Source: Candidatus Caldarchaeum sp. (GTDB lineage: Archaea > Thermoproteota > Nitrososphaeria_A > Caldarchaeales > Caldarchaeaceae). From it: a DNA stretch of 21,288 nucleotides. The notes beneath the pieces were generated by a model, which saw only the letters and a program-made list of their open reading frames with translations, did not search any database and was not told the origin of the DNA. A program made the position numbers and the translations under genes. The stretch is taken from positions 1 through 21,288 of the forward strand of contig JAWBRA010000027.1 in NCBI GenBank assembly GCA_038844785.1. The letters are read 5' to 3'. The first letter of the stretch is position 1. The number at the start of each line of letters is the position of its first letter. This document shows positions 1-12,900 of this stretch, one piece after another.

Positions 1-1295
1 TGGAGCTTCCCGTTGTGGAAGACGTATGTCTTCCTTCCCTTCAGAATCTTTTCCAGACGCCGTATGTCGTAGGCTCTGAAGACGTCTTTCAACGCGTCGG
101 GAACGGCCTGTAGTCCTATAGAGACTACGGCTGCAACGTCTCTAGCCATGTGCCACGGTATCTGTACTGGGTCTGGGCTTATCAGCAGAACCCCTACGCC
201 GTATGCTCTGAGCTCGTTGACTATCCTCTCGCCTATCGAGGGGGGCTCGTCGAACCTGCGTCCCCTGACGTAGTTCTGACACTCTTCAGCCACCACAAGC
301 CTTCTCAGGCCCAGCGTCTGCCCCTCAGACACAGCCTCGTAGTAGACCCTCGTCAGAACCACCAGACTGTATACGGTCTTCAGGTATACCGAGCCCAGCT
401 GTGACATGTCGTAGACGGTTACCGTGGGAGACCCTACGGTGTTGTGAGCCTCCCTCTCCTCGTCTATCAGAAGCCATAGAAGCCTTCTAGTCAAAGCCGC
501 AGCCATATTTGCTTCAGCAAGCCGTCTCTCAGCCATAGCTGTCTTGAAGAACGTTTCCAGAGCATCAACGACTTCGGATGTCTTCGGAACACCTCTCTGG
601 TAGAGCTTAACAAGCTCTCTTAGAAGCAGGGCTGCTGACGCAGAGCTTACGTCGGCTATGTCTCTCGTTATCTCGCGGAGAAGCTCAACGGCTATAGCGG
701 CCTTCTCCTTAGCCGAACGTCCTCCAACATCCCATGGATTCAGCTTGCGGATTATCGTGGCGCCTTCTATGAAGGTGGTGTACTCTCCTCTCCGGGCTGG
801 AGGGTGGCTGGGAGCTCCCGAGCGACATCACCCTCTTCCCCTGAGGTGATGCCGCCCACGGAACAATCCGTTCACTCTCAGGCCCGTGAGCCGGCCACCC
901 CCAGCTTTCCAGTCGAGGACAACCACCTGAACGTTGTTCTTCAAAGCCATGGTTATCGCCTGTTTTGCCGTGTTCGTCTTACCGCTGCCTGTAGGCCCTA
1001 GGACCAGCAGGTGTTTCTGGAAGTCTTTGAACGGTACGACTCCGAGAAGCCTTCTGCTCGCAACCACCGCCCTCACCACCAGTATCGCTACTAGGGTGAG
1101 GACGGCGGCTGCAAAGCCCACAGACAGCCAGTAGGTTATCTGGCTCGTCAATGTTTTGACGTCGAATAATGGTGTGGTGTTGACGCCCTTGATTCTCAGG
1201 TAGGTTTGCTGAGCGGTGTACATCGCATAGTAGCCAAGACCTATCAGGAACACTATCGACATCAACGTAGCCGCTACCCTTATCAGGAACGTCAT
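1..1295 (-). CDS. Membrane-anchored HerA/VirB4/FtsK-superfamily (DUF87-like) ATPase, interrupted by a candidate intron; join(1295..907, 789..<1); 3' end lies outside the window
   Basis: Exon 1 encodes two TM helices, HLLVLGPTGSGKT (Walker A) and VVVLDWK. Manual translation of the same frame from 788 to the window edge is open. It reads GEYTTFIEG..KLNPW..VYDMSQLG..LVVAEECQNY (Walker B)..ELRAYGVGVLLISPDP, the HerA/VirB4 motif order. A GGAGG SD lies upstream of ATG 1295. Confidence 0.9.
790..906 (-). other. Candidate archaeal BHB/BHL-type pre-mRNA intron (117 nt)
   Basis: A 4-bp helix CUGG(912-909)/CCGG(795-792) is followed by 3-nt AAA(908-906) on one strand and AGA(791-789) on the other. The intron stem is GCUGGGGGUGGC/GCCACCCUCCAGC and the exon-exon stem includes AGGUGGU(928-922)/ACCACCU(779-773). 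The insert has an in-frame UGA (830-828). Cutting after the second nt of each bulge gives TGG AAA GGA GAG TAC (WKGEY). Confidence 0.85.
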
Positions 1296-1298
1296 GCC

Positions 1299-1574
1299 TC
1301 ACGCCTCCTTGACCCGTCGGCGTTCATAGAACCTTCGGCAGTTTTTGCAGTAGTACAGTCCTTGAACCTTCTTCATCCATTTTCCGCAGACCATGCATGT
1401 CCTGTTGGATAGTGTCTTAGAGACAATGTATTCAACGTAGGCAGCAGCCATCATACCCAAGAAAACCAGCAGAAAAGCCTCTGGAATTCTCTCCTCGTTG
1501 AGAAAGCTCATAGCGAAGTAGACAGCCAACGCTATTACAGCCATGCTCAGCAGACTCATCGACATCTCCGACAC
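1299..1574 (-). CDS. Small membrane protein (2 TM) with C-terminal C4 zinc ribbon
   Basis: Two hydrophobic helices, then CMVC-x12-CKNC and a basic tail. Ends 3 nt before the ATPase start. The true start may be ATG 1565. Confidence 0.75.
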   Translation of the reverse strand: MSEMSMSLLSMAVIALAVYFAMSFLNEERIPEAFLLVFLGMMAAAYVEYIVSKTLSNRTCMVCGKWMKKVQGLYYCKNCRRFYERRRVKEA

Positions 1575-2260
1575 CCCTCACCCACTTGAAGGCCTAGCCC
1601 TTGCCGGAGGCCGGCAGCCTTCCACACCAGCCTCCGCTCCCCTGCCAAAACCTGCGCCGGGGAGCAGGCATCAGCCACCTGAAAGCCCGGTGGCCCGGCT
1701 CGGGAGGAAAAGCTCATACCCCTCCCCATGTAGAGGTTGGGGAGGGCGGCGTGTGAGGCCGTGTAAAACCTCCTCAAGCCAAGCCACCAGACCATGGGTG
1801 GGAGGATATCTTCGGAAACCTCTGAACGTAGTTCTCTGTCTTCGTGTCTCCAGCATCCATCCACAAACCTTTCTCAAACACCTCCATGGCGTCTGAGAGG
1901 GTTTTAGCAACCGTGGAGAGACCCCATGCCTCCCCGCAGAACCCCAGACACCTCCATGGCGTCCGGGAAGCGCAGGTGGAATGGATGTGGCGAACTATGT
2001 CGAGCAACGTCTGGATGTTATCTTAATCGTCTGTCTCCCTACCGCGCGCCTGTCGGTCCGAGCGAACCGTCCTGAAACCGGAATCATCCACCAGCTTTAG
2101 CGGAAGCTGCTCCACAGACCTGACCCACTCAGGCAGAGAGCTCGTGGTCCGGAGAACGCTCACGGTTAGGGACTCGAGTGTCTGGCAGTGGACTTGGATT
2201 GAAACAGCCACCTGTTACTTTCTGGCTGGGGGACAATCTGGCACGGTGACAACTACATGC
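1575..2260 (-). ncRNA. Putative large structured RNA or long structured 5' leader
   Basis: No protein-like ORF. Contains many hairpins (about 1587-1622, 1633-1668, 1685-1792, 1872-1898, 1942-1968, 2036-2172). Imperfect pairs are mostly G-U on the minus strand and would be A-C mismatches on the plus strand. Boundaries are uncertain. Confidence 0.5.
1878..1963 (-). repeat. 16-nt direct repeat (ACACCTCCATGGCGTC, 1878-1893 and 1948-1963) forming the tips of twin hairpins
   Basis: Two exact copies 70 nt apart. On the minus strand each folds as GACGCC-AUGGA-GGUGUY, with different but still paired lower stems. Confidence 0.85.
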
Positions 2261-2262
2261 TA

Positions 2263-2269
2263 GGAGGTG
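2263..2269 (+). promoter_or_regulatory. Shine-Dalgarno site GGAGGTG for ATG 2275
   Basis: Perfect archaeal SD 5 nt before the ATG. The same motif precedes ATG 15483 (15471-15477) and ATG 16483 (16467-16473). Confidence 0.8.
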
Positions 2270-2274
2270 GTGTT

Positions 2275-3714
2275 ATGAGGGTTTCGCATAGTAAAGCTGT
2301 TTCAACCGCGCTGGCCACGATAGCTATTATACTGGTTCTGATACTTGGTATGTCTTGGATGGCGTACATGACCGTCAACGCAGCCCAGCAGGCGCGTCAC
2401 GCAGGGGCGGCTGAGACAGCAGCCCTGAAGGCCAAGGAGCTGGTCAGGGTCTACATTTGGCTCGACCCGGCTAACCAGCCCGGCGGAGGCTACCGGAACC
2501 TGACGAGGATAAGCTTCGTCAACACGTGGAGCGGTGAGACGACGATAAACAGCCTCCTCATAGTCTGGAGAGACGGCAGGTACGAGGAGAGGCCTGTCTC
2601 GATAAGGCTTGGAGCCGGAGAGGACAAGACATACCTGCCCTCCCAGCTCGGGCTTGAGGGGCTGGACAACTACCAAGCCGCCCTAGAAAGAATAAAATAC
2701 ATACAGGTCCACACAAGCCTGGGCAACGACTTCGTATCGCTGTGGGGAAGGCCCGACAAGCCAGCCCTCTACGTGACAGGAACAACCAGAACTGTCACAT
2801 ACACAGTGACCAGAACCTTCACCACAACAACTACATCGTCTCCACCTCCACCACCAACAACAACTACATCGAGACCTCCACCACCACCAACAACTACTAC
2901 ATCGTCTCCACCACCTCCACCACCAACAACAACTACATCGAGACCTCCACCACCACCAACAACAACGAGCACCACAACCCAGCCCCCCGCCGCAACAACA
3001 TATACAATCACACAGACCGTGACCAGCACGAGCTTCGTATATGAGTGGGTAGCCACCACAAGGACAGTAACTGTTCAAGGAACCACATATGCGACCGTCA
3101 CGAGCACTTGGGTTTCCACAATGGTGTGGTACACTACCGTCACACAGATACACTACCCCCCATGCGTAGAGTGGAGGACAGTCGTCTTGGATGACCCGAA
3201 CCCATTCTGGTTGAGGGACTGTCAGGCTCCCCAGACCCTCAACCAGCCGGCTGGCGCAGAACCCATCACACCGTTTGAGACGCCGCAGTTTGTTTACAGC
3301 CGGACGCCGGTCGCGTCGCTTTCGCTGATAGGCATGCTGGCGGCCATCCAGCTGACCGGCTCCAAAAAACTCAGGAGAACCGCCCTGCCGCTCCTAGCAA
3401 TCCTCCTCTACACGATGCTCCTGACCCAGATTATGTCTTTGAAGCCGGCTCAGGCCCAATACGTCTACACCACTACAACCGTAACGGAATGGGTGACCTC
3501 AACAATCACCGTCACCTACACAGTAACACACACCGTCACTCAAATGACGACATGGACCATAACGCGATGGGTGCAATCCTACGTACATACCACAATCACT
3601 GTAACGGAGACCGGTTGGTGGTGGTGGACATGCGCCGGAACAACGATTGTCAACTATGTAACAAGATGTGAGTGTGGATTCGGGTTCTGTATATTCAACT
3701 GTTTCGGCCCATGA
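2275..3714 (+). CDS. Type IV pilin-like protein (class III signal peptide) with mucin-like Thr/Pro stalk, internal TM hairpin and C-terminal Thr/Trp/Cys-rich domain
   Basis: MRVSHSKA|VSTALATIAIILVLILGM fits the [KR][GA]|hydrophobic prepilin pattern. A globular pilin-like region follows, then TTTTS(S/R)PPPPP repeats. It is the first gene of an operon with pilus ATPase and platform genes. Start moved from 2257 to 2275 because of the SD. Confidence 0.8.
   Translation: MRVSHSKAVSTALATIAIILVLILGMSWMAYMTVNAAQQARHAGAAETAALKAKELVRVYIWLDPANQPGGGYRNLTRISFVNTWSGETTINSLLIVWRDGRYEERPVSIRLGAGEDKTYLPSQLGLEGLDNYQAALERIKYIQVHTSLGNDFVSLWGRPDKPALYVTGTTRTVTYTVTRTFTTTTTSSPPPPPTTTTSRPPPPPTTTTSSPPPPPPTTTTSRPPPPPTTTSTTTQPPAATTYTITQTVTSTSFVYEWVATTRTVTVQGTTYATVTSTWVSTMVWYTTVTQIHYPPCVEWRTVVLDDPNPFWLRDCQAPQTLNQPAGAEPITPFETPQFVYSRTPVASLSLIGMLAAIQLTGSKKLRRTALPLLAILLYTMLLTQIMSLKPAQAQYVYTTTTVTEWVTSTITVTYTVTHTVTQMTTWTITRWVQSYVHTTITVTETGWWWWTCAGTTIVNYVTRCECGFGFCIFNCFGP
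2824..2958 (+). repeat. Coding tandem repeat, 4 units of 33-36 nt encoding TTTTS(S/R)PPPPP(P), arranged ABAB
   Basis: Units at 2824-2856, 2857-2889, 2890-2925 and 2926-2958. Units 2 and 4 are identical. Confidence 0.95.
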
Positions 3715-4499: not shown

Positions 4500-5255
4500 A
4501 TGAGACGCGCGGCCTCAGCACTGTTGGTCTCATTGATTGTTTTACTGTACTCCCTACCCGTATCAAACATGCTGCAAGCCGACACCTATGTTTTCAACGT
4601 CACCCCGTTCGTAGACTACCTGCCTAAAATAGTGACCGTATGTGCGCCCGAAAACATCCGATACGACGTGGAATGGGCCGCGAGAGAGTGGAACTCTGCA
4701 ATAAAGCAGTATTCATCCATTGTTGGAGAGCCTTGGTTGAATGAGCCGGCCATACACGTAGTTGAGACAAACTGCTTTGCGAAAATCCATCTGACGCAGA
4801 CACCGGTATCCCCCACCGAGTATGGAAGAGTTGAATTGGCTTTGAACAGGACGACGTTCAGGATAGAAGGCCTCAACGTATTTGTCTGGAACACAACGGA
4901 CAGGGGTTTATTTCGGGCTATATTAATCCATGAACTCGGCCACGCTCTCGGAGCCCCGGACATATACGTCTACGGCTCCAACTCCAAAAAACCAATAATG
5001 GCGCATGTCCTCACCTCAATCCCGGAGAAAATAGAAATCACCTTCATCGATGTTTATCTTATCCACATGACGAAGGTTAAAAGACTGGAATGTCTGGGCA
5101 CAAGATGCTCCGCTTACTCTGTACGGCTTCCCAACGACCCGCTATCTCAGACTCTGGCCATGCTCGCTCCTCCGCTGACAGCCGGCGTGCTAACGTACCT
5201 CCTGCCGCTACTCGCGCCGCTGGTGAGGAGGTGGTACACCCGTGCGGTTGGCTGA
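4500..5255 (+). CDS. Membrane-anchored extracellular zinc metalloprotease (metzincin, matrixin/snapalysin-like)
   Basis: N-terminal signal/TM segment, HELGHALGAPD (HExxHxxGxxD), a PIM Met-turn and a C-terminal TM anchor with basic tail. Confidence 0.85.
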   Translation: MRRAASALLVSLIVLLYSLPVSNMLQADTYVFNVTPFVDYLPKIVTVCAPENIRYDVEWAAREWNSAIKQYSSIVGEPWLNEPAIHVVETNCFAKIHLTQTPVSPTEYGRVELALNRTTFRIEGLNVFVWNTTDRGLFRAILIHELGHALGAPDIYVYGSNSKKPIMAHVLTSIPEKIEITFIDVYLIHMTKVKRLECLGTRCSAYSVRLPNDPLSQTLAMLAPPLTAGVLTYLLPLLAPLVRRWYTRAVG

Positions 5256-6519
5256 CGTCCGGACAAATCTCAAGAAACAGGCTTGGATTCTGGCCCCCAT
5301 CACATACTTAATGCTCAGAGCAAGCCTAACCCCTCTGGTCCAGCCCTCAAAACATCCGCTTGAATGCATTACCGGGCCCTTCGACGGATGCGGCTTCATC
5401 TTCGACGAAGCCCACTACATACCGGCCGTGAGGAGGATGCTCATGGGTGAGGCTGTCAACCTAGAGCACCCGCCTCTAAGCAAGTGGGTTATAATGCTCG
5501 GCATAGGCATGCTTGGGGACAGCCCGTGGGGCTGGAGGCTTCCGATGGTGTTCTTCTCAGCCCTCACGATGGCTGTCGTAGGCCTTCTGGCCAGAAGGCT
5601 TGGCGGGGAGAAGTACGTCCTTCCGGCGCAGATGCTTCTCTTCACAGACGTCACCTTCTTCAACCTTGGCGGGGTTGGCATACTCGACCCGCCGGCCCTC
5701 TTCTTCATGACGCTCTCAGCCTACCTGTATGTCTCCGGCAGAAAGGCTCTGGCAGGGGTTGCCGCAGGCCTTTCGATGCTGGCCAAAAGCAGCGGCATAC
5801 TCGTGATACCAACCCTGCTGGCTCTCGAGGCTCTGCACGAGTATGGGAAGACCAGAGACCTTGACAGGGCTGTCGACGCCGTTAGGCGGAGTGTTAGGGT
5901 TTTCGCCATACTTCCCCTGCTCGTGTTCTTCGCGGGCATAGCTGTCTGGGACTCTCAGACGAAGGCATTCCCAACCCCGCTCCACCACCTCGACTTCATG
6001 CTCAGCTACCACACTAAGCTGAGCTACAACGAGCCGTGGAAGGTTGAGCTCCCACTCTCGTGGATAATACCGCCTATATCAAGGATGCCCTCTCCATACT
6101 TCGTCTCCACAGTAACACCGCCGGGATACCATCCAGTAGCGTTCTGGGGTGTTTCCTCCCCCCTGTGGTGGAGCGTATGGCTTATGGTTCCTATAGCCTA
6201 CCAGCTTATAAAAACCAGCAGGATACACAACCCATGCCCTGAGGCAGTTGCCCTAGGATGGTTCGGAGTAAGCTTCGGAGCCTTCGCCTTCCTCGCCTAC
6301 CTGTTTAAGAGGTGGACGTACAGCTTCTACTTCCTCCAGATAAGCCCCATCCTAGCCGCTACAATCCCATACATCTTCGACAGGCATCTGCCCAAGACAG
6401 CCTACAAACTCTTCCTAGCATTCCAGATACTCTGGTTCATTATGTTCTTCCCCAGCAAGCCCGACTGGCTTATCCATCTCCTCGGAAGCCTAGGCCTCGG
6501 TGAGGTTCCATGGATATGA
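5242..6519 (+). CDS. Polyprenyl-phosphate-sugar:protein O-glycosyltransferase (PMT/GT39-like, GT-C fold)
   Basis: FIFDEAHY (catalytic DE), NLEHPPLSK, PWGWRLP and LAKSSG motifs in a multi-TM protein. Confidence 0.88.
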   Translation: MRLADVRTNLKKQAWILAPITYLMLRASLTPLVQPSKHPLECITGPFDGCGFIFDEAHYIPAVRRMLMGEAVNLEHPPLSKWVIMLGIGMLGDSPWGWRLPMVFFSALTMAVVGLLARRLGGEKYVLPAQMLLFTDVTFFNLGGVGILDPPALFFMTLSAYLYVSGRKALAGVAAGLSMLAKSSGILVIPTLLALEALHEYGKTRDLDRAVDAVRRSVRVFAILPLLVFFAGIAVWDSQTKAFPTPLHHLDFMLSYHTKLSYNEPWKVELPLSWIIPPISRMPSPYFVSTVTPPGYHPVAFWGVSSPLWWSVWLMVPIAYQLIKTSRIHNPCPEAVALGWFGVSFGAFAFLAYLFKRWTYSFYFLQISPILAATIPYIFDRHLPKTAYKLFLAFQILWFIMFFPSKPDWLIHLLGSLGLGEVPWI

Positions 6520-7652
6520 GAAACTGGATGACAGCGGTCGCGATAACCATATCCATGATAGGCCTGAGCGTTCTCCTGCACTCGCCCTTCACCAACCCCA
6601 GCCTGTACACGGACATTCTCGGCTTCTTCTGGAATGATTTCGCAAGCAGAGATAGGATACCCTATCAACAACTCGACGAAACAGGCAGTCATTTCGAATA
6701 CCCGTTCGTTTCAGGCTTACTCTCCATACTGGCTTGGAAGACGGGCGGAGACCTTGCAGGGTTCTACGCCGTATACTCTGGAATGGTGGCTGCTTCAGCG
6801 CTCGCCATGGTGTACGCCATGATGCGTCTCCACGGGAACAACGGCTTCTGGATGTATCTCGTGTCCCCAAGCCTCGTCGTCTACGGTGTTTATGGATACG
6901 ATGTGTTCCTAGCCGCCTTGACAGCTCTAGCCGTACTCTTCTTCACCAGAGAAAGATACAGTCTTTCAGCGATACTGCTGGCTCTGGCCTTCCACACCAA
7001 GCTTCTCAGCATACTCTTCCTCCCCTACGCGTTGCTGAGGCTTGACGGCAGACAGAGGCTGAAATACCTAGCTGTCTTCGGGTCAGTGGCTGGAGCACCC
7101 ATCATAGCGATGCCGGAGGCGTTCAGAGCCGTCGTAGAAGCCCAGACCGTCTGGAGCCTTGAAAACGCGTGGTACGTCCACGTATTCCCAGACGCCGCCT
7201 CCCCGGTCGGACCCAACACAGCCCCCGGCCTCAGCACGGCCATTCTCTTCGGGTTAATCGGCATGTCCATGCTCTATGTTCATGTTCTCAGGAAAGCCCT
7301 CAGCCCTGCCCAGTTCATGCTTCTTGCCACGGCCTCATACCTGATGTTCACGCCCAGATACAGTCCTCAGACAAGCATATTCCTCCTGCCCTTCCTCCCA
7401 GCCTCGGGCGTCCTTACGCTGGGGTTCCCCTTATGGGAGCTGTCGAACGCAGCCATAATACTGACGTGGTTCACCACATCCGAGCCCTTCAAACCGTGGA
7501 GCGTACCGCAAACAATGACGTTGGTCAGGTTCATAGCCCTGTCAACAATATTCGTCCAAAGCCTGCACGCCGCAGGCCTGCTGAAAAAACCATCGTCAGC
7601 GATACCGTACCTTCCCAGAATCGTCTCTGTTCTGAGGAGGCTCAGGGTTTGA
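6516..7652 (+). CDS. GT87/DUF2029-like GT-C glycosyltransferase
   Basis: YTDI, FEYP, YDVF, HTKL and YSPQ motifs in a multi-TM protein. ATGA overlap with the upstream stop. Confidence 0.78.
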   Translation: MRNWMTAVAITISMIGLSVLLHSPFTNPSLYTDILGFFWNDFASRDRIPYQQLDETGSHFEYPFVSGLLSILAWKTGGDLAGFYAVYSGMVAASALAMVYAMMRLHGNNGFWMYLVSPSLVVYGVYGYDVFLAALTALAVLFFTRERYSLSAILLALAFHTKLLSILFLPYALLRLDGRQRLKYLAVFGSVAGAPIIAMPEAFRAVVEAQTVWSLENAWYVHVFPDAASPVGPNTAPGLSTAILFGLIGMSMLYVHVLRKALSPAQFMLLATASYLMFTPRYSPQTSIFLLPFLPASGVLTLGFPLWELSNAAIILTWFTTSEPFKPWSVPQTMTLVRFIALSTIFVQSLHAAGLLKKPSSAIPYLPRIVSVLRRLRV

Positions 7653-8657: not shown

Positions 8658-9309
8658 AGCCGCCCTGCTGACCCTGTCGCTGGCCGTCGCCTCACTGCTA
8701 TCTGGAGCCGTCTCCGGAATATTTCTCCAGACGTTTTACAACGTGGGCTTCGCAACAGCTCTCACAGCCTTCGTGGAGAAAGCCTCGCGGACGACTGCCG
8801 TGGTCCCCAACGTAGCCGAGCAGGCCGTCGCAGCGTCCACGGCCATACAGCGGGCTGTAACAGGCCAGCCGGCTGAAAAACCCAAGCCCGTCTTCCTGAT
8901 GATGGGTATAGCGCTGTCCAACCTCAGGCCACTGCTTCTGATACCGGCCATACACTCGGTCATGCCTTTCGGCATGCTTCTGGAGGGCAGGGGGAGGCTG
9001 AAAAACCTAGGAACAAGGCATGAAAGCGTCATAATGGCTTCAGCGCTGGCACCCCTAGCCATTAACGGCTACGCCATGGGTGGCAGTATCTCAGAATACC
9101 CCATCATAACCTATCTCCTTGTCCTCGAGCTCCTCCCCCTAGCGCTCGTCTCCTACATCGCCGCTAAAGCCTTTCTCTCGCCTTCGACAGGCCTTGAAAG
9201 GCTGAAGACGGCTTACACAGGCTGTCTAGGCATCTTCACAGCCAGTCTGGTGATAACCTTCGCCGCAGCATCCATGGAGGCATGGCTTGCAGGTGGTTTC
9301 TATGACTGA
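8644..9309 (+). CDS. Second SpoIIM-like membrane protein
   Basis: IALSNLR, AINGYAMG, LELL and terminal AASMEAW motifs. GTG 8644 is preceded by GGGGTG. Confidence 0.7.
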   Translation: MLEDKAALLTLSLAVASLLSGAVSGIFLQTFYNVGFATALTAFVEKASRTTAVVPNVAEQAVAASTAIQRAVTGQPAEKPKPVFLMMGIALSNLRPLLLIPAIHSVMPFGMLLEGRGRLKNLGTRHESVIMASALAPLAINGYAMGGSISEYPIITYLLVLELLPLALVSYIAAKAFLSPSTGLERLKTAYTGCLGIFTASLVITFAAASMEAWLAGGFYD

Positions 9310-11086
9310 AAACGTCCTCATATGCCCTTCTTGCGGCGCGGAAAACCCAGACGGCGCAGGCTTCTGCATGCTCTGCGGACGAAAGCTAACCGTGGCCGTG
9401 GAGAAGGAGACAAAGAAAACGAAGAAATCCGAGCCTGTCAGAGAAAAACCCGTCCCGAAGAAACACGTCAAAGACACCGCAGCCGGCGAAAAAGCTGAAA
9501 ACATCCTCAAAGCACTGCAACAGTTCCTCCTCACAAACCTGCCCACCCCAAAGCCTCTCTCAGAGCCTGACGAGCTGACGGAAGCCGAGACGCTGGCAAG
9601 GTATCAGGTCGGGCTCTCGACCGTGAGGATAGCTAGGCTCGACGCAACAGGCTTGTATCTGGTGACCGAGCCGCCGATATCAAGCGAGGGGAAGCTGGTC
9701 TACGCCCTCACGCTAGACACGCTTTTCAGAGAATCCACGCTGCCGCCGGTTGAGTTCATTAGACAGCCTATGAGAGTCGGCAGGGAGGGCGTTCACACGG
9801 AGGCCGCAGCCCTAGACAACATGATAACCGCCGTTATAGTCAAGCAGCTCAATAGACTCGGCATACAGCCCACCAACGAGAGAATCCTTGAGGTCAAATA
9901 CTACGTCAACAGAAACGTTTTCGGATACGGTCCGGTAGACGTACCGGTCAACGACCCCGCTGTCGAGGACATTTCATGCGTCGGCCCCAGAATACCCGTG
10001 ATGATAGCGCACAGAGACTTCGGCCACCTCCACTACCTTACAAGCAACATAGTCTTCAGCTCGGACGACGAGATAAACGACTTCATGAACAGACACGCCC
10101 ACAGAAGCAACACCGTGATGACGCTCCACAAACCATACGCCGACTTCCCCCTAACCGACGGAAGCAGGTTCGCCGGCATCCTCGGAAGAGAGCTGTCGGC
10201 CTTCGGACCAACGTTCACCATAAGGAAGTGGCCGACAGACCCCTGGAGCCTGCCACGCATCGTCAGGATGAAGATGCTCACACCCCTCATGGCTGCCTAC
10301 GTCTGGTTCGCCCTCGAGAACAAGGCCCTGATAGGCATTGCTGGGCCGACAGCCTCAGGGAAGACAAGCCTCTTCACAGCGCTTCTCGCATGCCTGGACC
10401 CCAACAGCAAGATAATCACGATAGAGGACACCTACGAGATAAACATCCCCCAGAGACACTGGCTCCCATTAACCGGGAGAAGGTCCGCTATGATATCGGC
10501 TGGACAGCTGGAGATAAGCGAGTCCGAGCTTATAGACATAGCCATGAGGATGAGGCCCGACTTCCTAGTCATAGGCGAGGTACGCAAAGACGAGTCCGTG
10601 TACCATCTGCTCAAGTCAGCCTTCACCGGGCACGGCGGAGGCTTCACGTTCCACGCAGGCTCCCCATCCGAGTTCTACTCAAGGCTTTCACTCATGCTGA
10701 GGAAAACCGGGATGTCGGAGGCTATGCTCGCCTTCCTGTGGGGCTGTGTCATAACCAGCTTCCAGGACACCCCCAACGGAAGAGCTAGAAGAGTAACCTC
10801 GATAGCCGAGATATTCCCATCACCTGAGAAGCCGGAGGGAATTGACGTCCTAGACATCTTCAGATACAAGGCCTCGGACGACACCTTCCACCCGGACAGC
10901 ATCGACGAGGTTATATCCAGAAGCAGGAAGCTACGCTGGTACCTCCAGTCGATGGGCTACGATGAAGAACATCTGGCGAAACAGCTACGCTACAGAGTTG
11001 AAGCCATCCAGTACGGCGTCGAACGAAACATGAGCAGCACGGTATTCCACCAATACGTCGCGGAGGTGAGACGACGCTGGGCGTGA
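9302..11086 (+). CDS. Type IV pilus/secretion ATPase (VirB11/TadA/FlaI family) with N-terminal zinc ribbon
   Basis: CPSC..FCMLC ribbon, GYGP..VNDP.VEDI, Walker A GPTASGKT, Asp box TIEDTYE, MRMRPDFLVIGEVR and His box TGHG..FHA. Confidence 0.95.
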   Translation: MTENVLICPSCGAENPDGAGFCMLCGRKLTVAVEKETKKTKKSEPVREKPVPKKHVKDTAAGEKAENILKALQQFLLTNLPTPKPLSEPDELTEAETLARYQVGLSTVRIARLDATGLYLVTEPPISSEGKLVYALTLDTLFRESTLPPVEFIRQPMRVGREGVHTEAAALDNMITAVIVKQLNRLGIQPTNERILEVKYYVNRNVFGYGPVDVPVNDPAVEDISCVGPRIPVMIAHRDFGHLHYLTSNIVFSSDDEINDFMNRHAHRSNTVMTLHKPYADFPLTDGSRFAGILGRELSAFGPTFTIRKWPTDPWSLPRIVRMKMLTPLMAAYVWFALENKALIGIAGPTASGKTSLFTALLACLDPNSKIITIEDTYEINIPQRHWLPLTGRRSAMISAGQLEISESELIDIAMRMRPDFLVIGEVRKDESVYHLLKSAFTGHGGGFTFHAGSPSEFYSRLSLMLRKTGMSEAMLAFLWGCVITSFQDTPNGRARRVTSIAEIFPSPEKPEGIDVLDIFRYKASDDTFHPDSIDEVISRSRKLRWYLQSMGYDEEHLAKQLRYRVEAIQYGVERNMSSTVFHQYVAEVRRRWA

Positions 11087-12900
11087 AAACAACGTACTGG
11101 GCCATAGCCGCAGCCCTGTCAGCAGTATGGACAGCCTACATGGAGCTTCTGGGACCCGGTTCAATACAGTACCTCATACCTGTTCCCGCCACCCTCATAG
11201 GAGCCGCTTTAGGCTCGGCCCTCAGCGGCAGACTGTCTGAGAAGCTGGTCACTTATGCCACCACGCTCGTGGAGAAGGCTCAGGTGAAGAAGATACCGGT
11301 TGACGTAGCGGATGAAATGGGGAAGCATATAGGAATGAGTATAGCTATTGCAGCCGCTTTCACGCCGACGGCTGTTGCCACACTCATTGGCATGGGACCC
11401 GGAATGCATCTACTACTGGTAACTCTAGCCGTAGCACCAATAATACCCGCCTCCACATACATGCTGTCATGGTCTAACAGGGTTGGGGAGAGGAAGGAGA
11501 GAACCGACTGGGAGCTGCCTTTCTTCACAGTTTACGCAACCATTCTAGCCCACTGCGGACTAACGCTTTACGCCAGCATGCGGCTGCTGGCCAAAACCGG
11601 GAGAAGGCTTTTCCACCAGATAACCAAGGAGGCTGAGAGTGTTGAAAGGCTGACAGAGCTGACGGGAAGAGGAGTCATCGAAAGCCTCGAGATACATGCG
11701 TCAAACCATCCTCATGAAGGCTTTCAGAGCCTTGTGTACAGCGTCACAAGCGTCTGGAGAATGGGCGGAGACATTGTTTCCACGCTGGAGGACCGTGCGA
11801 CAGAGTTCCTCAAATCCCTCGAGGAGAGATACGATAGATATGCTACGCTTGTCTCCGCCGTGATGGAGGCCTTCATCATACTTCTCCTGCTTCTGCCTAT
11901 GGGGCTTGTTCTAACCGCCGTCACAAGCCCCGGTCACAGCGCCTCAATAATCGCTTCGATGACTGTGGGCGTCATACCCACAACAGGAATCCTGATGTAT
12001 TTCTTCGTGAGAAGCAAGTCTCCCAAACATCTGGACGATATAAGAGCCAGACCCGTGGACGCTGCTTTCGCCGCAGCCATGGCCGCGGCGACGCTTCCAC
12101 CGCTCATAGTCGTCAACGCCCCCCAGACGCTTCTCTTCACAATACCCGCCGCAGCGTTCTCAACAGGACTTTACATCAGGATGAGGCCGCTTATAGCTGA
12201 GCTGAGGGAGTGCGACACAGAGGCTAGGAGGTGGCTCAAGGATGTCACGGAGTTCAGAAGGCTGGGCAACCCTCCGGCCACAGCCGTAATGAAGACCGCG
12301 AACCATAGATACAAGCCTAGGTTCATGAAAATACTCGAATCCATCATAGCTAGGATGAACATGGGGCTGACCATATGGGAGGCCGGGGCAGGCGTCGTGA
12401 AAAGCTGGCTTCTCAGAATGAGCCTCTTCCTGCTCCACAGCATCAACATGTCGGGAGGAGGCTCGCCATTCCTGATGGAGAAGCTCGTCGAGCTTCTGAG
12501 AAGCTACAACCTGGCCAGGGAGAAGGCATCTGGAAGGCTTTCGCCCTTCAAGTATCTGGCGTTCTCGATGCCCTTCATAACAGCCCTCACGATAGGCATG
12601 GTTCTCCCGATAGCGAACCTAGGCGGCCTGTTCCAGACAACCGAGGGCGGGCAGGTAGTCGGCGGAGCAGGGCTGCCGATAGCCGCCATAACCCCGGAGG
12701 AGATGCTTATGGTCGCTGACTCGGGAATGGTGATGATAGCCGTCGGCAGCCTCTTCTACATGCTGATTATAAGCAGGGCGGTGGACGGCCATCCCTACAA
12801 CACGTGGCGAATAGCGCTGGTCATGCTGGTCACAGCCGCATCGTACTATTTGATGACCCCCATCGGCGACATCATGACATCCATGCTGAGGTGGAGTTAG
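11083..12900 (+). CDS. Pilus membrane platform protein (TadC/FlaJ/GspF family, two cytoplasmic repeats)
   Basis: GTGA overlap with the ATPase stop. Two ELP/GG-type cytoplasmic domains alternate with TM bundles. Confidence 0.88.
   Translation: MKTTYWAIAAALSAVWTAYMELLGPGSIQYLIPVPATLIGAALGSALSGRLSEKLVTYATTLVEKAQVKKIPVDVADEMGKHIGMSIAIAAAFTPTAVATLIGMGPGMHLLLVTLAVAPIIPASTYMLSWSNRVGERKERTDWELPFFTVYATILAHCGLTLYASMRLLAKTGRRLFHQITKEAESVERLTELTGRGVIESLEIHASNHPHEGFQSLVYSVTSVWRMGGDIVSTLEDRATEFLKSLEERYDRYATLVSAVMEAFIILLLLLPMGLVLTAVTSPGHSASIIASMTVGVIPTTGILMYFFVRSKSPKHLDDIRARPVDAAFAAAMAAATLPPLIVVNAPQTLLFTIPAAAFSTGLYIRMRPLIAELRECDTEARRWLKDVTEFRRLGNPPATAVMKTANHRYKPRFMKILESIIARMNMGLTIWEAGAGVVKSWLLRMSLFLLHSINMSGGGSPFLMEKLVELLRSYNLAREKASGRLSPFKYLAFSMPFITALTIGMVLPIANLGGLFQTTEGGQVVGGAGLPIAAITPEEMLMVADSGMVMIAVGSLFYMLIISRAVDGHPYNTWRIALVMLVTAASYYLMTPIGDIMTSMLRWS

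What the first reader, a model, noticed from the sequence alone, without database searches (positions are those of the whole stretch)
773..928. Candidate BHB/BHL-spliced intron in a protein-coding ATPase gene
Seen: the ATPase ORF stops at UGA 830-828, but the same frame resumes and the family motif D-x-K-G-E-Y is split exactly (LDWK / GEY) by 117 nt. The junctions form a 4-bp helix CUGG/CCGG, a 3-nt bulge AAA and a 12-bp intron stem. The 3' site AGA sits in a small internal loop closed by an exon-exon stem (CUC/GAG, GU/AC, AGGUGGU/ACCACCU). Established: the archaeal splicing endonuclease EndA cuts after the second bulge nucleotide and RtcB ligates; TACK enzymes accept relaxed BHL sites; the classic mRNA example is crenarchaeal cbf5. 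Applying that rule removes 906..790 and gives W-K-G-E-Y in frame. Inference: this is a functional mRNA intron in a gene class where I know of none, making ATPase expression depend on splicing.
Basis: partly seen in the sequence, partly recalled or inferred. Interest (0 to 1): 0.95.

Follow-up and report, generated by a model that had tools for sequence, protein, structure and literature searches.

The report
Spliced intron inside archaeal ATPase gene
A 117-base stretch that interrupts a membrane ATPase gene of a hot-spring archaeon looks like a real intron of the kind cut out by the tRNA-splicing enzyme, which would make it one of very few such introns known inside a protein-coding gene of archaea.

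Summary
On the minus strand, a HerA/CedD-like membrane ATPase gene (1295..3, cut by the contig end) is interrupted between DWK and GEY by 117 nt (906..790) carrying an in-frame TGA (830-828).

A 4-bp helix CUGG/CCGG, an AAA bulge and an intron stem are present. The 3' site AGA lies in a small internal loop, so this is a relaxed BHB.

- **Related DNA:** 29 of 60 loci carry an insert at this codon boundary and 31 read DWKGEY uninterrupted.
- **Insert variants:** the 22 distinct inserts are 69-170 nt. Twenty of them would stop or frameshift the gene. All 22 keep the helix and bulge, and the intron stem covaries.
- **Exon 2:** it stays under purifying selection.
- **Transcript evidence:** a metatranscriptome contig (run X1) joins 787 to 905, skipping exactly 117 nt. 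Its variant letters match, at 39 of 40 places, a relative whose genomic DNA runs from DWK into the intron.
- **Host machinery:** the genome has two EndA subunit genes, one RtcB, and a cbf5 gene with a mini-intron.

Verdict: a genuine endonuclease-spliced mRNA intron (about 0.9) and a new member of a known but very rare kind. It is not shown for this exact strain, and there is no enzyme assay.

The parts
907..1295 (-). Exon 1. It runs from ATG 1295 through two transmembrane-like segments and Walker A (GPTGSGKT) to the first two bases of the Lys codon of DWK.
   Evidence: DUF87/HerA match at residues 90-129
790..906 (-). Intron, 117 nt, with an in-frame TGA at 830-828. 789-905 or 788-904 would give the same product.
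   Evidence: The RNA joint 787->905 skips 117 nt with a 2-nt ambiguity.
3..789 (-). Exon 2. It starts with the last base of the Lys codon, then GEY, and holds the Walker B-like VVAEECQNY and the rest of the ATPase domain. It runs off the contig end.
   Evidence: In one search, synonymous-only codon differences dominate (19 against 2 amino-acid-changing, compared with L014).
909..912 (-). 5' strand of the central 4-bp helix (CUGG, exon 1)
   Evidence: paired in 22 of 22 distinct variants
906..908 (-). 5' bulge AAA. The predicted cut is after the second A (907|906).
   Evidence: (AAA in 22 of 22)
894..905 (-). 5' strand of the intron stem (h')
   Evidence: compensatory changes
796..808 (-). 3' strand of the intron stem, with one bulged U (801)
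792..795 (-). 3' strand of the central helix (CCGG, last intron bases before the bulge)
   Evidence: CCGG or CCAG in 22 of 22
789..791 (-). 3' site AGA. The predicted cut is after G (790|789). It faces the unpaired GA 914..913, making a 2x3 internal loop rather than a pure bulge.
   Evidence: (AGA 19, AAA 2, GGA 1 of 22)
915..928 (-). 5' exon strand of the exon-exon helices (UCCUC 919..915; AGGUGGU 928..922)
773..790 (-). 3' exon strand of the exon-exon helices (GAGGA 790..786 in the MFE; ACCACCU 779..773)

Best explanation
The 117 nt at 906..790 (minus strand) are an archaeal endonuclease-type intron (BHB-like, relaxed at the 3' site) inside the coding sequence of a membrane-anchored HerA/CedD-like ATPase.

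**Proposed mechanism.** The pre-mRNA pairs CUGG of exon 1 with CCGG at the intron's 3' end. The 5' site then lies in a 3-nt bulge (AAA) next to a long intron stem. The 3' site (AGA) lies in a small internal loop closed by exon-exon pairing. The host's heteromeric (alpha-beta) splicing endonuclease cuts after the second nucleotide of each bulge. RtcB then joins the exons, restoring the codon AA|A and the motif DWK|GEY, which gives one ATPase open frame. Unspliced RNA would yield only a 155-aa fragment ending at the intron's TGA.

**Shown:**
- the structure and its covariation;
- its conservation at one codon boundary in many lineages despite free change of length and interior;
- purifying selection on exon 2;
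- an RNA molecule with the exact joint in a close relative;
- the enzymes' genes.

**Inferred:** that EndA and RtcB are the enzymes, the exact cut positions within the 2-nt ambiguity, and that this strain splices.
For: **Anatomy.** It is as described, with fold z = -4.1.

**Comparative.** I examined 81 related loci (L001-L006 and L009-L083).
- The DWK..GEY junction is readable in 60 of them. 29 have an insert at exactly this boundary and 31 have none. L005 begins an insert but ends at its contig end.
- There are 22 distinct inserts of 69-170 nt. Ten are not multiples of 3, 10 more carry in-frame stops, and only 2 are open in frame.
- All 22 keep CUGG/CCRG (4 of 4 bp) and the AAA bulge. The 3' triplet is AGA in 19, AAA in 2 and GGA in 1. 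The adjoining intron stem is at least 5 bp in 20 of 22.
- The unconstrained MFE forms helix plus AAA bulge in 19 of 22.

**Covariation.**
- 93.7% of cells are paired against 81.9 +/- 1.6 in shuffles (0 of 500 reach it). The covariation score is 0.221 against 0.085 (0 of 500). Slid partners pair in 25-58% of cells.
- In the end-anchored table, stem position 3 is GC 14, CG 4, UA 2, UG 2; position 4 is GC 16, CG 4, and unpaired in 2 rows; position 5 is GC 18, UA 4.

**Exon 2 is kept as coding sequence in intron-bearing genomes.** Window against L014 has 19 synonymous-only and 2 amino-acid-changing codons, with differences by codon position of 0/2/19.

**RNA.** In metatranscriptome run X1, one contig (1256 nt, word depth 156) lies on 905-1380 and 682-787. 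Its joint 787->905 skips 117 nt, with 106 letters on the shorter side and nothing in between.
- Its 40 listed variant letters equal those of L005 at 39 places. L005 is genome G008's DNA.
- L005 itself differs from the window at 44 of 474 places in that range.
- L005 continues from DWK into 70 nt of intron.

**Host.**
- Two PF01974 genes. One carries the ...YRHG...DHAPF...K pattern that I read from memory as the catalytic subunit; the other lacks it.
- One RtcB.
- The host's own cbf5 is split by a 14-nt insert at GGTL|DPAVSG, with helix CCCU/GGGG and an AGA bulge.

**Literature.** Passages say that (alpha-beta)2 EndA occurs in Aigarchaeota and cleaves relaxed BHB/BHL motifs (PMC5829648). They also say Ca. 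Caldiarchaeum subterraneum has the heterotetrameric enzyme (PMC3082918).
Against: - **3' site is not canonical.** It is not a 3-nt bulge, because AGA faces two unpaired bases. In this window's MFE two of its three bases are paired, and opening it costs 4.5 kcal/mol. Only 9 of 22 MFEs leave the 3' triplet fully open.
- **The RNA evidence is indirect.**
  - It comes from a relative about 90% identical in exon 1, not from this strain.
  - It is a Logan contig, so it gives no ratio of spliced to unspliced.
  - An RNA library can hold DNA.
  - An intron-less DNA allele in that community is not excluded.
  - G008's contig stops 70 nt into the intron, and its exon 2 is not in the assembly.
- **Three of four runs were no test.** X2, X4 and X5 laid nothing.
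- **Insert lengths.** 12 of 22 are multiples of three, more than a third. The rows are related, so this is no test, but I cannot explain it. Two inserts are open in frame, so translation through them is not excluded there.
- **One decaying copy.** In G004 the gene has other stops and a changed Walker A, so some copies are decaying.
- **Missing.** No enzyme assay and no circular intron.
Confidence: 0.9

Rival explanations
1. The joined RNA contig reflects an intron-less DNA allele in the sampled community. On this view the insert-bearing genes are never spliced: they are pseudogenes, or two separate genes (an N-terminal Walker A fragment and a C-terminal fragment).
For: - Intron-less alleles are common in the family, in 31 of 60 loci.
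- The tree needs at least 5 changes of state.
- G008's contig ends inside the insert and lacks exon 2. That could come from strain heterogeneity.
- Gene callers have filed exon 2 alone (P0004, P0008).
- The G004 copy is decaying.
Against: - In the clade of this window every DNA locus seen has the insert: window, L014, L015 and L005, 4 of 4.
- The RNA contig matches the intron-bearing L005 at 39 of 40 variant places.
- Exon 2 shows strong third-position bias behind stops and frameshifts. It has no start codon near GEY: the first in-frame start used by a caller is 34 residues downstream of GEY (P0008).
- A pseudogene would not keep a covarying helix-bulge-stem in 22 variants.
- Splitting Walker A from Walker B into two chains is not known to me for this family.
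Confidence: 0.05
2. The insert is translated or skipped by the ribosome. Either it is a 39-aa loop with the TGA read through or recoded, or there is translational bypassing between DWK and GEY.
For: - The insert is in frame here (117 nt), and 12 of 22 lengths are multiples of three.
- Two variants, and P0003, are open through the insert.
Against: - Ten of 22 variants shift the frame and 10 more have 1-2 in-frame stops of differing kinds (TGA here, TAG in L002).
- The insert's translation is not conserved between families.
- It splits the HerA motif D-x-(H/K)-G-E-Y, which aligns without a gap to a solved HerA.
- An RNA molecule lacking the 117 nt exists.
- Lengths of 69-170 nt are far beyond the roughly 50-nt bypass that I recall for phage T4 gene 60.
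Confidence: 0.02
3. A self-splicing (group I or II) intron, an intein, or a small DNA transposon (MITE) that happens to sit here.
For: - Inserts of different sequence families occupy one site.
- One family carries an invertible core between inverted repeats, which is MITE-like.
Against: - No Rfam family matches in the window (gathering threshold), in 700..1000 (E <= 5, one chance miRNA hit at E 0.9) or in six other loci.
- 69-170 nt is too short for a ribozyme intron or an intein.
- The insert is single-copy in this genome.
- A MITE would not keep a covarying pairing with exon bases.
Confidence: 0.02

Closest known systems
cbf5 pre-mRNA intron of Crenarchaeota (Aeropyrum, Sulfolobales, Desulfurococcales); PMC2738675, passages read
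   Same: - It is a short intron inside a coding sequence, bounded by a relaxed BHB-like motif.
- The hosts have (alpha-beta)2 EndA.
- It shows a patchy distribution with gains or losses.
- It is mis-annotated as a frameshift or split gene.
- This genome's own cbf5 carries such a mini-intron.
   Different: - **Gene:** a HerA/CedD-like membrane ATPase.
- **Lineage:** Caldarchaeum/Aigarchaeota.
- **Size and structure:** much longer (69-170 nt against 14 nt in this genome's cbf5), with a long intron stem.
- **Diversity:** many sequence families at one site.
BHB intron in the 5'UTR of HVO_1309, Haloferax volcanii (PMC7714728; PMC10485636, passages read)
   Same: An mRNA substrate of the archaeal splicing endonuclease other than cbf5. 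The spliced form is seen in RNA-seq.
   Different: That one lies in an untranslated leader, in a euryarchaeon with an alpha2 enzyme and a canonical BHB. This one interrupts a codon in the reading frame.
Non-canonical tRNA introns (HBh', hBH, BHL) of TACK archaea (PMC5829648, passages read)
   Same: One perfect half (helix, 3-nt bulge, stem) and one relaxed half. The enzyme type with broad specificity is expected.
   Different: The substrate is an mRNA with no tRNA body, and the exon-exon helix is built from coding sequence.
IRE1/RtcB splicing of HAC1/XBP1 mRNA in eukaryotes (PMC13149111, passages read; details recalled)
   Same: Spliceosome-independent cutting of an mRNA at structured sites and joining by an RtcB-type ligase. 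Splicing changes the protein made.
   Different: The endonuclease and the site structure differ. Regulation by stress is shown there and not here.
CedD / CedB DNA-import ATPases of Sulfolobales (PMC11868833, passages read)
   Same: For the host gene: a transmembrane segment plus a HerA-clade ATPase. CedD is the best NCBIfam match. A type IV pilus-like ATPase and platform protein lie 8-12 kb away.
   Different: The scores (76-90 bits) are far below the CedD cut-off of 600. The protein is shorter and lacks the N-terminal domain, and no function has been tested.

Membership tests
Archaeal endonuclease-spliced (BHB-type) intron | Central 4-bp helix with a 3-nt bulge holding the 5' site, followed by a helix | tested here: met
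   CUGG/CCRG is 4 of 4 bp, AAA is bulged and the stem adjoins it in 22 of 22 variants. The MFE forms it in 19 of 22.
Archaeal endonuclease-spliced (BHB-type) intron | A second 3-nt bulge on the other strand holding the 3' site, closed by an exon-exon helix (strict hBHBh') | tested here: not met
   AGA faces two unpaired bases (GA), giving a 2x3 internal loop. It is fully open in 9 of 22 MFEs, and opening it costs 0-7.6 kcal/mol. It fits the relaxed classes (hBH/BHL) described in PMC5829648, not the strict motif.
Archaeal endonuclease-spliced (BHB-type) intron | Base pairs kept by compensatory change | tested here: met
   93.7% of cells paired and covariation score 0.221, with 0 of 500 shuffles reaching either. 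Four pairs change on both sides, but 382 of 500 shuffles reach that count, so that measure alone says nothing.
Archaeal endonuclease-spliced (BHB-type) intron | Removed at the RNA level, with cuts after the second bulge nucleotide | tested here: inconclusive
   An RNA contig has the exact 117-nt joint, with a 2-nt ambiguity that includes the predicted cuts. It matches a genome whose DNA has the intron. However, it is a relative, it is contigs only, and there is no DNA run of the same sample.
Archaeal endonuclease-spliced (BHB-type) intron | The host encodes a broad-specificity EndA and an RtcB ligase | tested here: met
   Two PF01974 genes of 179 and 189 aa and one RtcB. The specific loop with its lysine was not examined.
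Archaeal endonuclease-spliced (BHB-type) intron | Cleavage by EndA in vitro; linear or circular excised intron | not testable with these tools
   No assay is available, and contigs cannot show a circle junction.
Group I / group II self-splicing introns | Ribozyme core recognised by covariance models | tested here: not met
   Searches find no family. The length is 69-170 nt.
CedD (NF053655) / CedB (NF041017) DNA-import ATPases (host gene) | Score over the curated equivalog cut-off | tested here: not met
   For the intron-less homologues P0011 and P0005, CedD scores 75.8 and 89.7 bits against a cut-off of 600, and CedB scores 26-32 bits against 700.
HerA/FtsK-superfamily P-loop ATPase (host gene) | Walker A followed by the D-x-x-G-E-Y strand, then Walker B | tested here: met
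   PF01935 DUF87 scores 35-36 bits over its cut-off of 23.2. The alignment to a solved HerA covers GSTGSGKS...D-I-H-G-E-Y without a gap.

The most novel reading that the evidence does not exclude
This is an ancient, family-wide mRNA intron of Caldarchaeales that does more than ride along. Splicing by EndA and RtcB would act as a switch for making a DNA-translocating, Ced-like ATPase. Unspliced RNA would give only a 155-aa membrane fragment with Walker A. Expression of a DNA-uptake or transfer machine would then be tied to the state of the RNA-repair and tRNA-splicing system, as XBP1/HAC1 splicing ties a transcription factor to stress. It would also mean that coding-sequence BHB introns are a regular, overlooked feature of TACK genomes, because this genome already has two.
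Probability: 0.12. Interest if true: 0.85.

Novelty: new member of a known kind. Interest (0 to 1): 0.68.

Why it matters
In the papers I could search, archaeal mRNA splicing by the tRNA endonuclease rests on two genes. One is cbf5, in the coding sequence, in Crenarchaeota. The other is HVO_1309, in the leader, in Haloferax. One review expects more to be found.

This case adds several things:
- a second coding-sequence example, in another gene and another lineage;
- 22 natural variants that together act as a mutational map of what the enzyme needs: the 5' helix-bulge-stem is fixed, the 3' site is loose and the interior is free;
- a transcript with the joint.

It also explains database errors. 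Public records either translate the intron as a 38-45 aa insert or call exon 2 as a separate protein.

Finally, it offers a test bed for intron loss and gain in prokaryotes, with at least 5 changes of state on the tree.

Tried and rejected
**Rejected readings**
- **Readthrough or recoding of TGA:** rejected because other variants frameshift or use TAG.
- **Ribozyme intron, C/D sRNA or other known RNA in the intron:** nothing in Rfam.
- **Repeat or mobile copy:** the insert is single-copy in the genome. The five other matches have E above 1.

**Steps that gave nothing**
- **tRNA genes in the window:** none.
- **Runs X2, X4 and X5:** nothing laid, so no test.
- **G008's exon 2:** I looked for it to complete that intron in DNA. 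It is not in the assembly, apart from one 26-nt match.
- **P0010:** this is an intron-less protein 76% identical to the window's. It is no closer than 76% to any locus, so it is simply another lineage. Whether it came from DNA or RNA is unknown.

**Steps considered and left out**
- A genome-wide scan for further BHB-split genes. Without a homology filter the motif is too loose; I estimated hundreds of chance hits.
- Structure prediction of the ATPase, as not needed for the question.

**Limits on the literature**
- The searches found no report of an intron in a Ced-like or HerA-like ATPase, or of protein-gene introns in Aigarchaeota.
- The library lacks most subscription journals, and supplements were closed and not seen.
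- Of the papers cited I read only passages returned by 'find'. I saw the rest only as search listings.
- Watanabe 2002 and Marck & Grosjean 2003 are known to me only through those passages and from memory.
Full report
**What is there.** The window is a whole 21,288-nt contig (C27) of a 1.74-Mb, 57-contig genome bin. Its closest protein relatives are named Candidatus Caldarchaeum.

On the minus strand a gene starts at ATG 1295 and runs off the contig at position 3. It encodes two hydrophobic segments, Walker A (GPTGSGKT) and a HerA-type ATPase domain.

The frame meets TGA at 830-828 and then stays open to the contig end. Between the codons for DWK (914..906) and GEY (788..780) lie 117 nt. Their translation is a Gly/Arg/Pro-rich string unlike anything in the family.

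**The fold.**
- Folded alone, 760..940 gives -89.5 kcal/mol, z = -4.1, with 0 of 200 shuffles as good.
- CUGG (912..909) pairs with CCGG (795..792).
- AAA (908..906) is bulged.
- Twelve intron bases (905..894) pair with 808..796, with one bulged U.
- The 3' triplet AGA (791..789) lies opposite the unpaired GA (914..913). In the MFE its G and A pair with UC of the exon.

The bulges lie 3' of the central helix on each strand. From memory, this is the geometry of archaeal BHB sites, and it is also the geometry of this genome's cbf5 intron. Cutting after the second bulge base removes 906..790 and rebuilds the Lys codon.

**Relatives.** Most homologous proteins read DWKGEY without interruption. A few carry an insert there (P0003, 38 aa; P0009, 45 aa) or begin just after it (P0004, P0008).

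I collected DNA from genomes of the same family, from species-representative genomes and from metagenome contigs.
- I examined 81 loci (L001-L006 and L009-L083). Of these, 60 show both DWK and GEY: 29 with an insert and 31 without. L005 starts an insert and then ends.
- Some loci are the same record found twice (L002=L009, L003=L011, L004=L012).
- There are 22 distinct inserts, of 69, 82, 83, 89, 95, 98, 98, 99, 113, 114, 114, 117, 120, 123, 135, 135, 156, 156, 156, 166, 170 and 170 nt.
- Ten are not multiples of three and ten more hold in-frame stops. Two (123 and 135 nt) are open.
- Even L015, 96% identical in protein to this window, has an 89-nt version.

The interior is therefore free to change and usually destroys the frame, yet the insert sits at one phosphodiester bond.

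**Structure is what is conserved.**
- All 22 variants have CUGG/CCRG, AAA and a stem that starts right after the bulge.
- Stem sequences differ by family: GCUGGGGG/CCUCCAGC, GCCCUCUU/GGGAGGGC, GCGGGUU/GACCCGC and GCGGGCGC/GCGCCCGC.
- On the MAFFT alignment A2, 93.7% of cells pair. No shuffle of 500 reaches this value or the covariation score, and sliding the partner drops pairing to 25-58%.
- The count of pairs with double changes (4) is not above shuffles (382 of 500). Four rows are gapped in part of the stem because MAFFT broke it.
- The end-anchored table avoids that problem and shows GC/CG/UA/UG at stem position 3.
- The 3' side is looser. The triplet is AGA in 19, AAA in 2 and GGA in 1. 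It always faces GA, is closed by UCCUC/GGGGA-like exon pairing in many loci, and is fully open in 9 of 22 MFEs.

This is a relaxed motif of the kind that passages of PMC5829648 assign to (alpha-beta)2 enzymes.

**Exon 2 is alive.** In intron-bearing pairs the differences behind the intron fall on third codon positions. Window against L014 has 19 synonymous-only and 2 amino-acid-changing codons. L020 against L026 has 68 against 25. One ungapped pair (L021/L022) does not show this, probably because of an indel that I did not align.

**RNA.** One search found RNA runs that hold parts of 1..2400. I laid X1, X2, X4 and X5 on 300..1400 at 90% likeness. X2, X4 and X5 gave nothing, which is no test.

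In X1, record 2 (1256 nt, word depth 156) covers 905-1380 with 45 other letters and 682-787 with 2 other letters. The two pieces are adjacent in the record. The result is a joint skipping 117 nt, with two letters that fit either side, so 788-904, 789-905 and 790-906 are all allowed.

The contig is not from this strain.
- Its listed variant letters equal those of L005 (genome G008) at 39 of 40 places.
- L005 has 44 differences from the window in that range, of which 39 are the shared ones. Its other five lie near the ends, where the table lists nothing.
- L005 is genomic DNA that runs from DWK into 70 nt of a closely related intron before its contig ends.

So the DNA of that population has the intron and an RNA-library molecule of the same population lacks it.

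A second X1 contig (record 3, depth 40) runs from exon 2 into a diverged intron. It diverges from the window just upstream of 771, where record 2 matches the window. It therefore belongs to a third relative and says only that unspliced or DNA-derived copies are also in the library.

Caveats:
- the evidence is contigs, not reads;
- there is no DNA run of that sample;
- G008 lacks exon 2.

**Host machinery.**
- The genome has two genes with the EndA catalytic-domain fold, of 179 and 189 aa. Only the first has the Tyr/His/Lys pattern that I recall as catalytic.
- It has one RtcB.
- Its cbf5 is read in two frames around GGTL|DPAVSG. The 14 nt between are bounded by CCCU/GGGG, an AGA bulge and a 6-bp exon-exon helix. 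This is the classical archaeal mRNA intron site type.

**History.** A maximum-likelihood tree used 49 distinct rows. I dropped two short rows (L004, L012) and nine duplicates. The spliced reading was used for the intron-bearing rows.
- The tree needs 5 changes of intron state, of which 3 are forced by well-supported branches.
- Each intron sequence family follows a protein clade.
- Intron-bearing lineages include the deep branches.

The root is a midpoint with one very long outgroup. 'Old intron, repeated exact loss' is therefore my reading and is not shown.

**The gene.** The best family matches are DUF87/HerA and, for intron-less homologues, NCBIfam CedD, far below its cut-off. CedD is a transmembrane HerA-clade ATPase needed for DNA import in Saccharolobus (PMC11868833 passages). 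A secretion-type ATPase (9287..11086) and a platform protein (11083..12900) lie nearby. I take the product to be a Ced-like DNA-translocating ATPase, by inference only.

**Comparison and novelty.** The passages read state the following.
- In 2009 no archaeal pre-mRNA splicing was confirmed beyond cbf5 (PMC2738675).
- In 2020 only cbf5 was known besides the newly found HVO_1309 leader (PMC7714728).
- In 2023 the endonuclease was said to splice 'at least two archaeal genes', with more expected (PMC10485636).

Six searches found nothing on this gene or on Aigarchaeota. The mechanism is the known one. The gene, the lineage, the size and the natural series of variants are new. I rate it a new member of a known kind, with confidence 0.9 that it is a spliced intron.

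Noticed in passing
L087 (G000:C3:27110-30868); on contig C3 about 29382..29369, minus strand: This genome's cbf5 is split by a 14-nt insert between GGTL and DPAVSG. The insert has helix CCCU/GGGG, a 3' AGA bulge and a 6-bp exon-exon helix. This would be the classical cbf5 mRNA intron, here in a Caldarchaeum genome. The searched papers place that intron in Crenarchaeota.
   Followed up: partly
L055:2270-2502 and L070:642-870 (introns of 170 and 166 nt): About 130 nt of the intron core of L055 aligns without gaps to the reverse complement of L070's core (score 180 against 96 direct). The core is flanked by inverted repeats containing GUCCGGAGCCGGAC. It has therefore inverted, or a small element with inverted ends entered in both orientations, while the splice-site ends stayed the same.
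   Followed up: partly
P0003, P0009, P0004, P0008: Public protein records translate the intron as a 38-45 aa insert where it happens to be open, or they call exon 2 alone as a 'hypothetical protein'. These are annotation errors caused by the intron.
   Followed up: partly
L015:429-580: A metagenome contig is 96% identical in protein to this gene but carries an 89-nt intron, 28 nt shorter inside and with identical ends. This is evidence of fast turnover of the interior.
   Followed up: partly
L004 / L012 (G004:C36): This copy has a 123-nt insert that is open in frame. It also has Walker A changed to TRSGKT and further stops (1 TGA, 2 TAG in the two matched pieces), so it is probably a decaying gene.
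   Followed up: no
window 2257..3714 (+): A 485-aa ORF with runs of Thr and tandem TTTTS(S/R)PPPPP(P) repeats and a hydrophobic start. It has no Pfam match and looks like a heavily glycosylated surface protein. Two glycosyltransferase-like genes follow at 5242..7652.
   Followed up: no
window 9287..12900 (+): A zinc-ribbon plus T2SSE-type ATPase and a T2SSF-type membrane protein, which form a type IV pilus-like assembly pair. They lie 8-12 kb from the Ced-like ATPase. The pairing recalls Ups pili with the Ced system in Sulfolobales.
   Followed up: no
the 22 distinct inserts: Twelve of the 22 intron lengths are multiples of three (117, 120, 123, 99, 69, 135, 135, 156 x3, 114 x2), although most of them hold stops. 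The rows are related, so this may mean nothing. I have no explanation.
   Followed up: no
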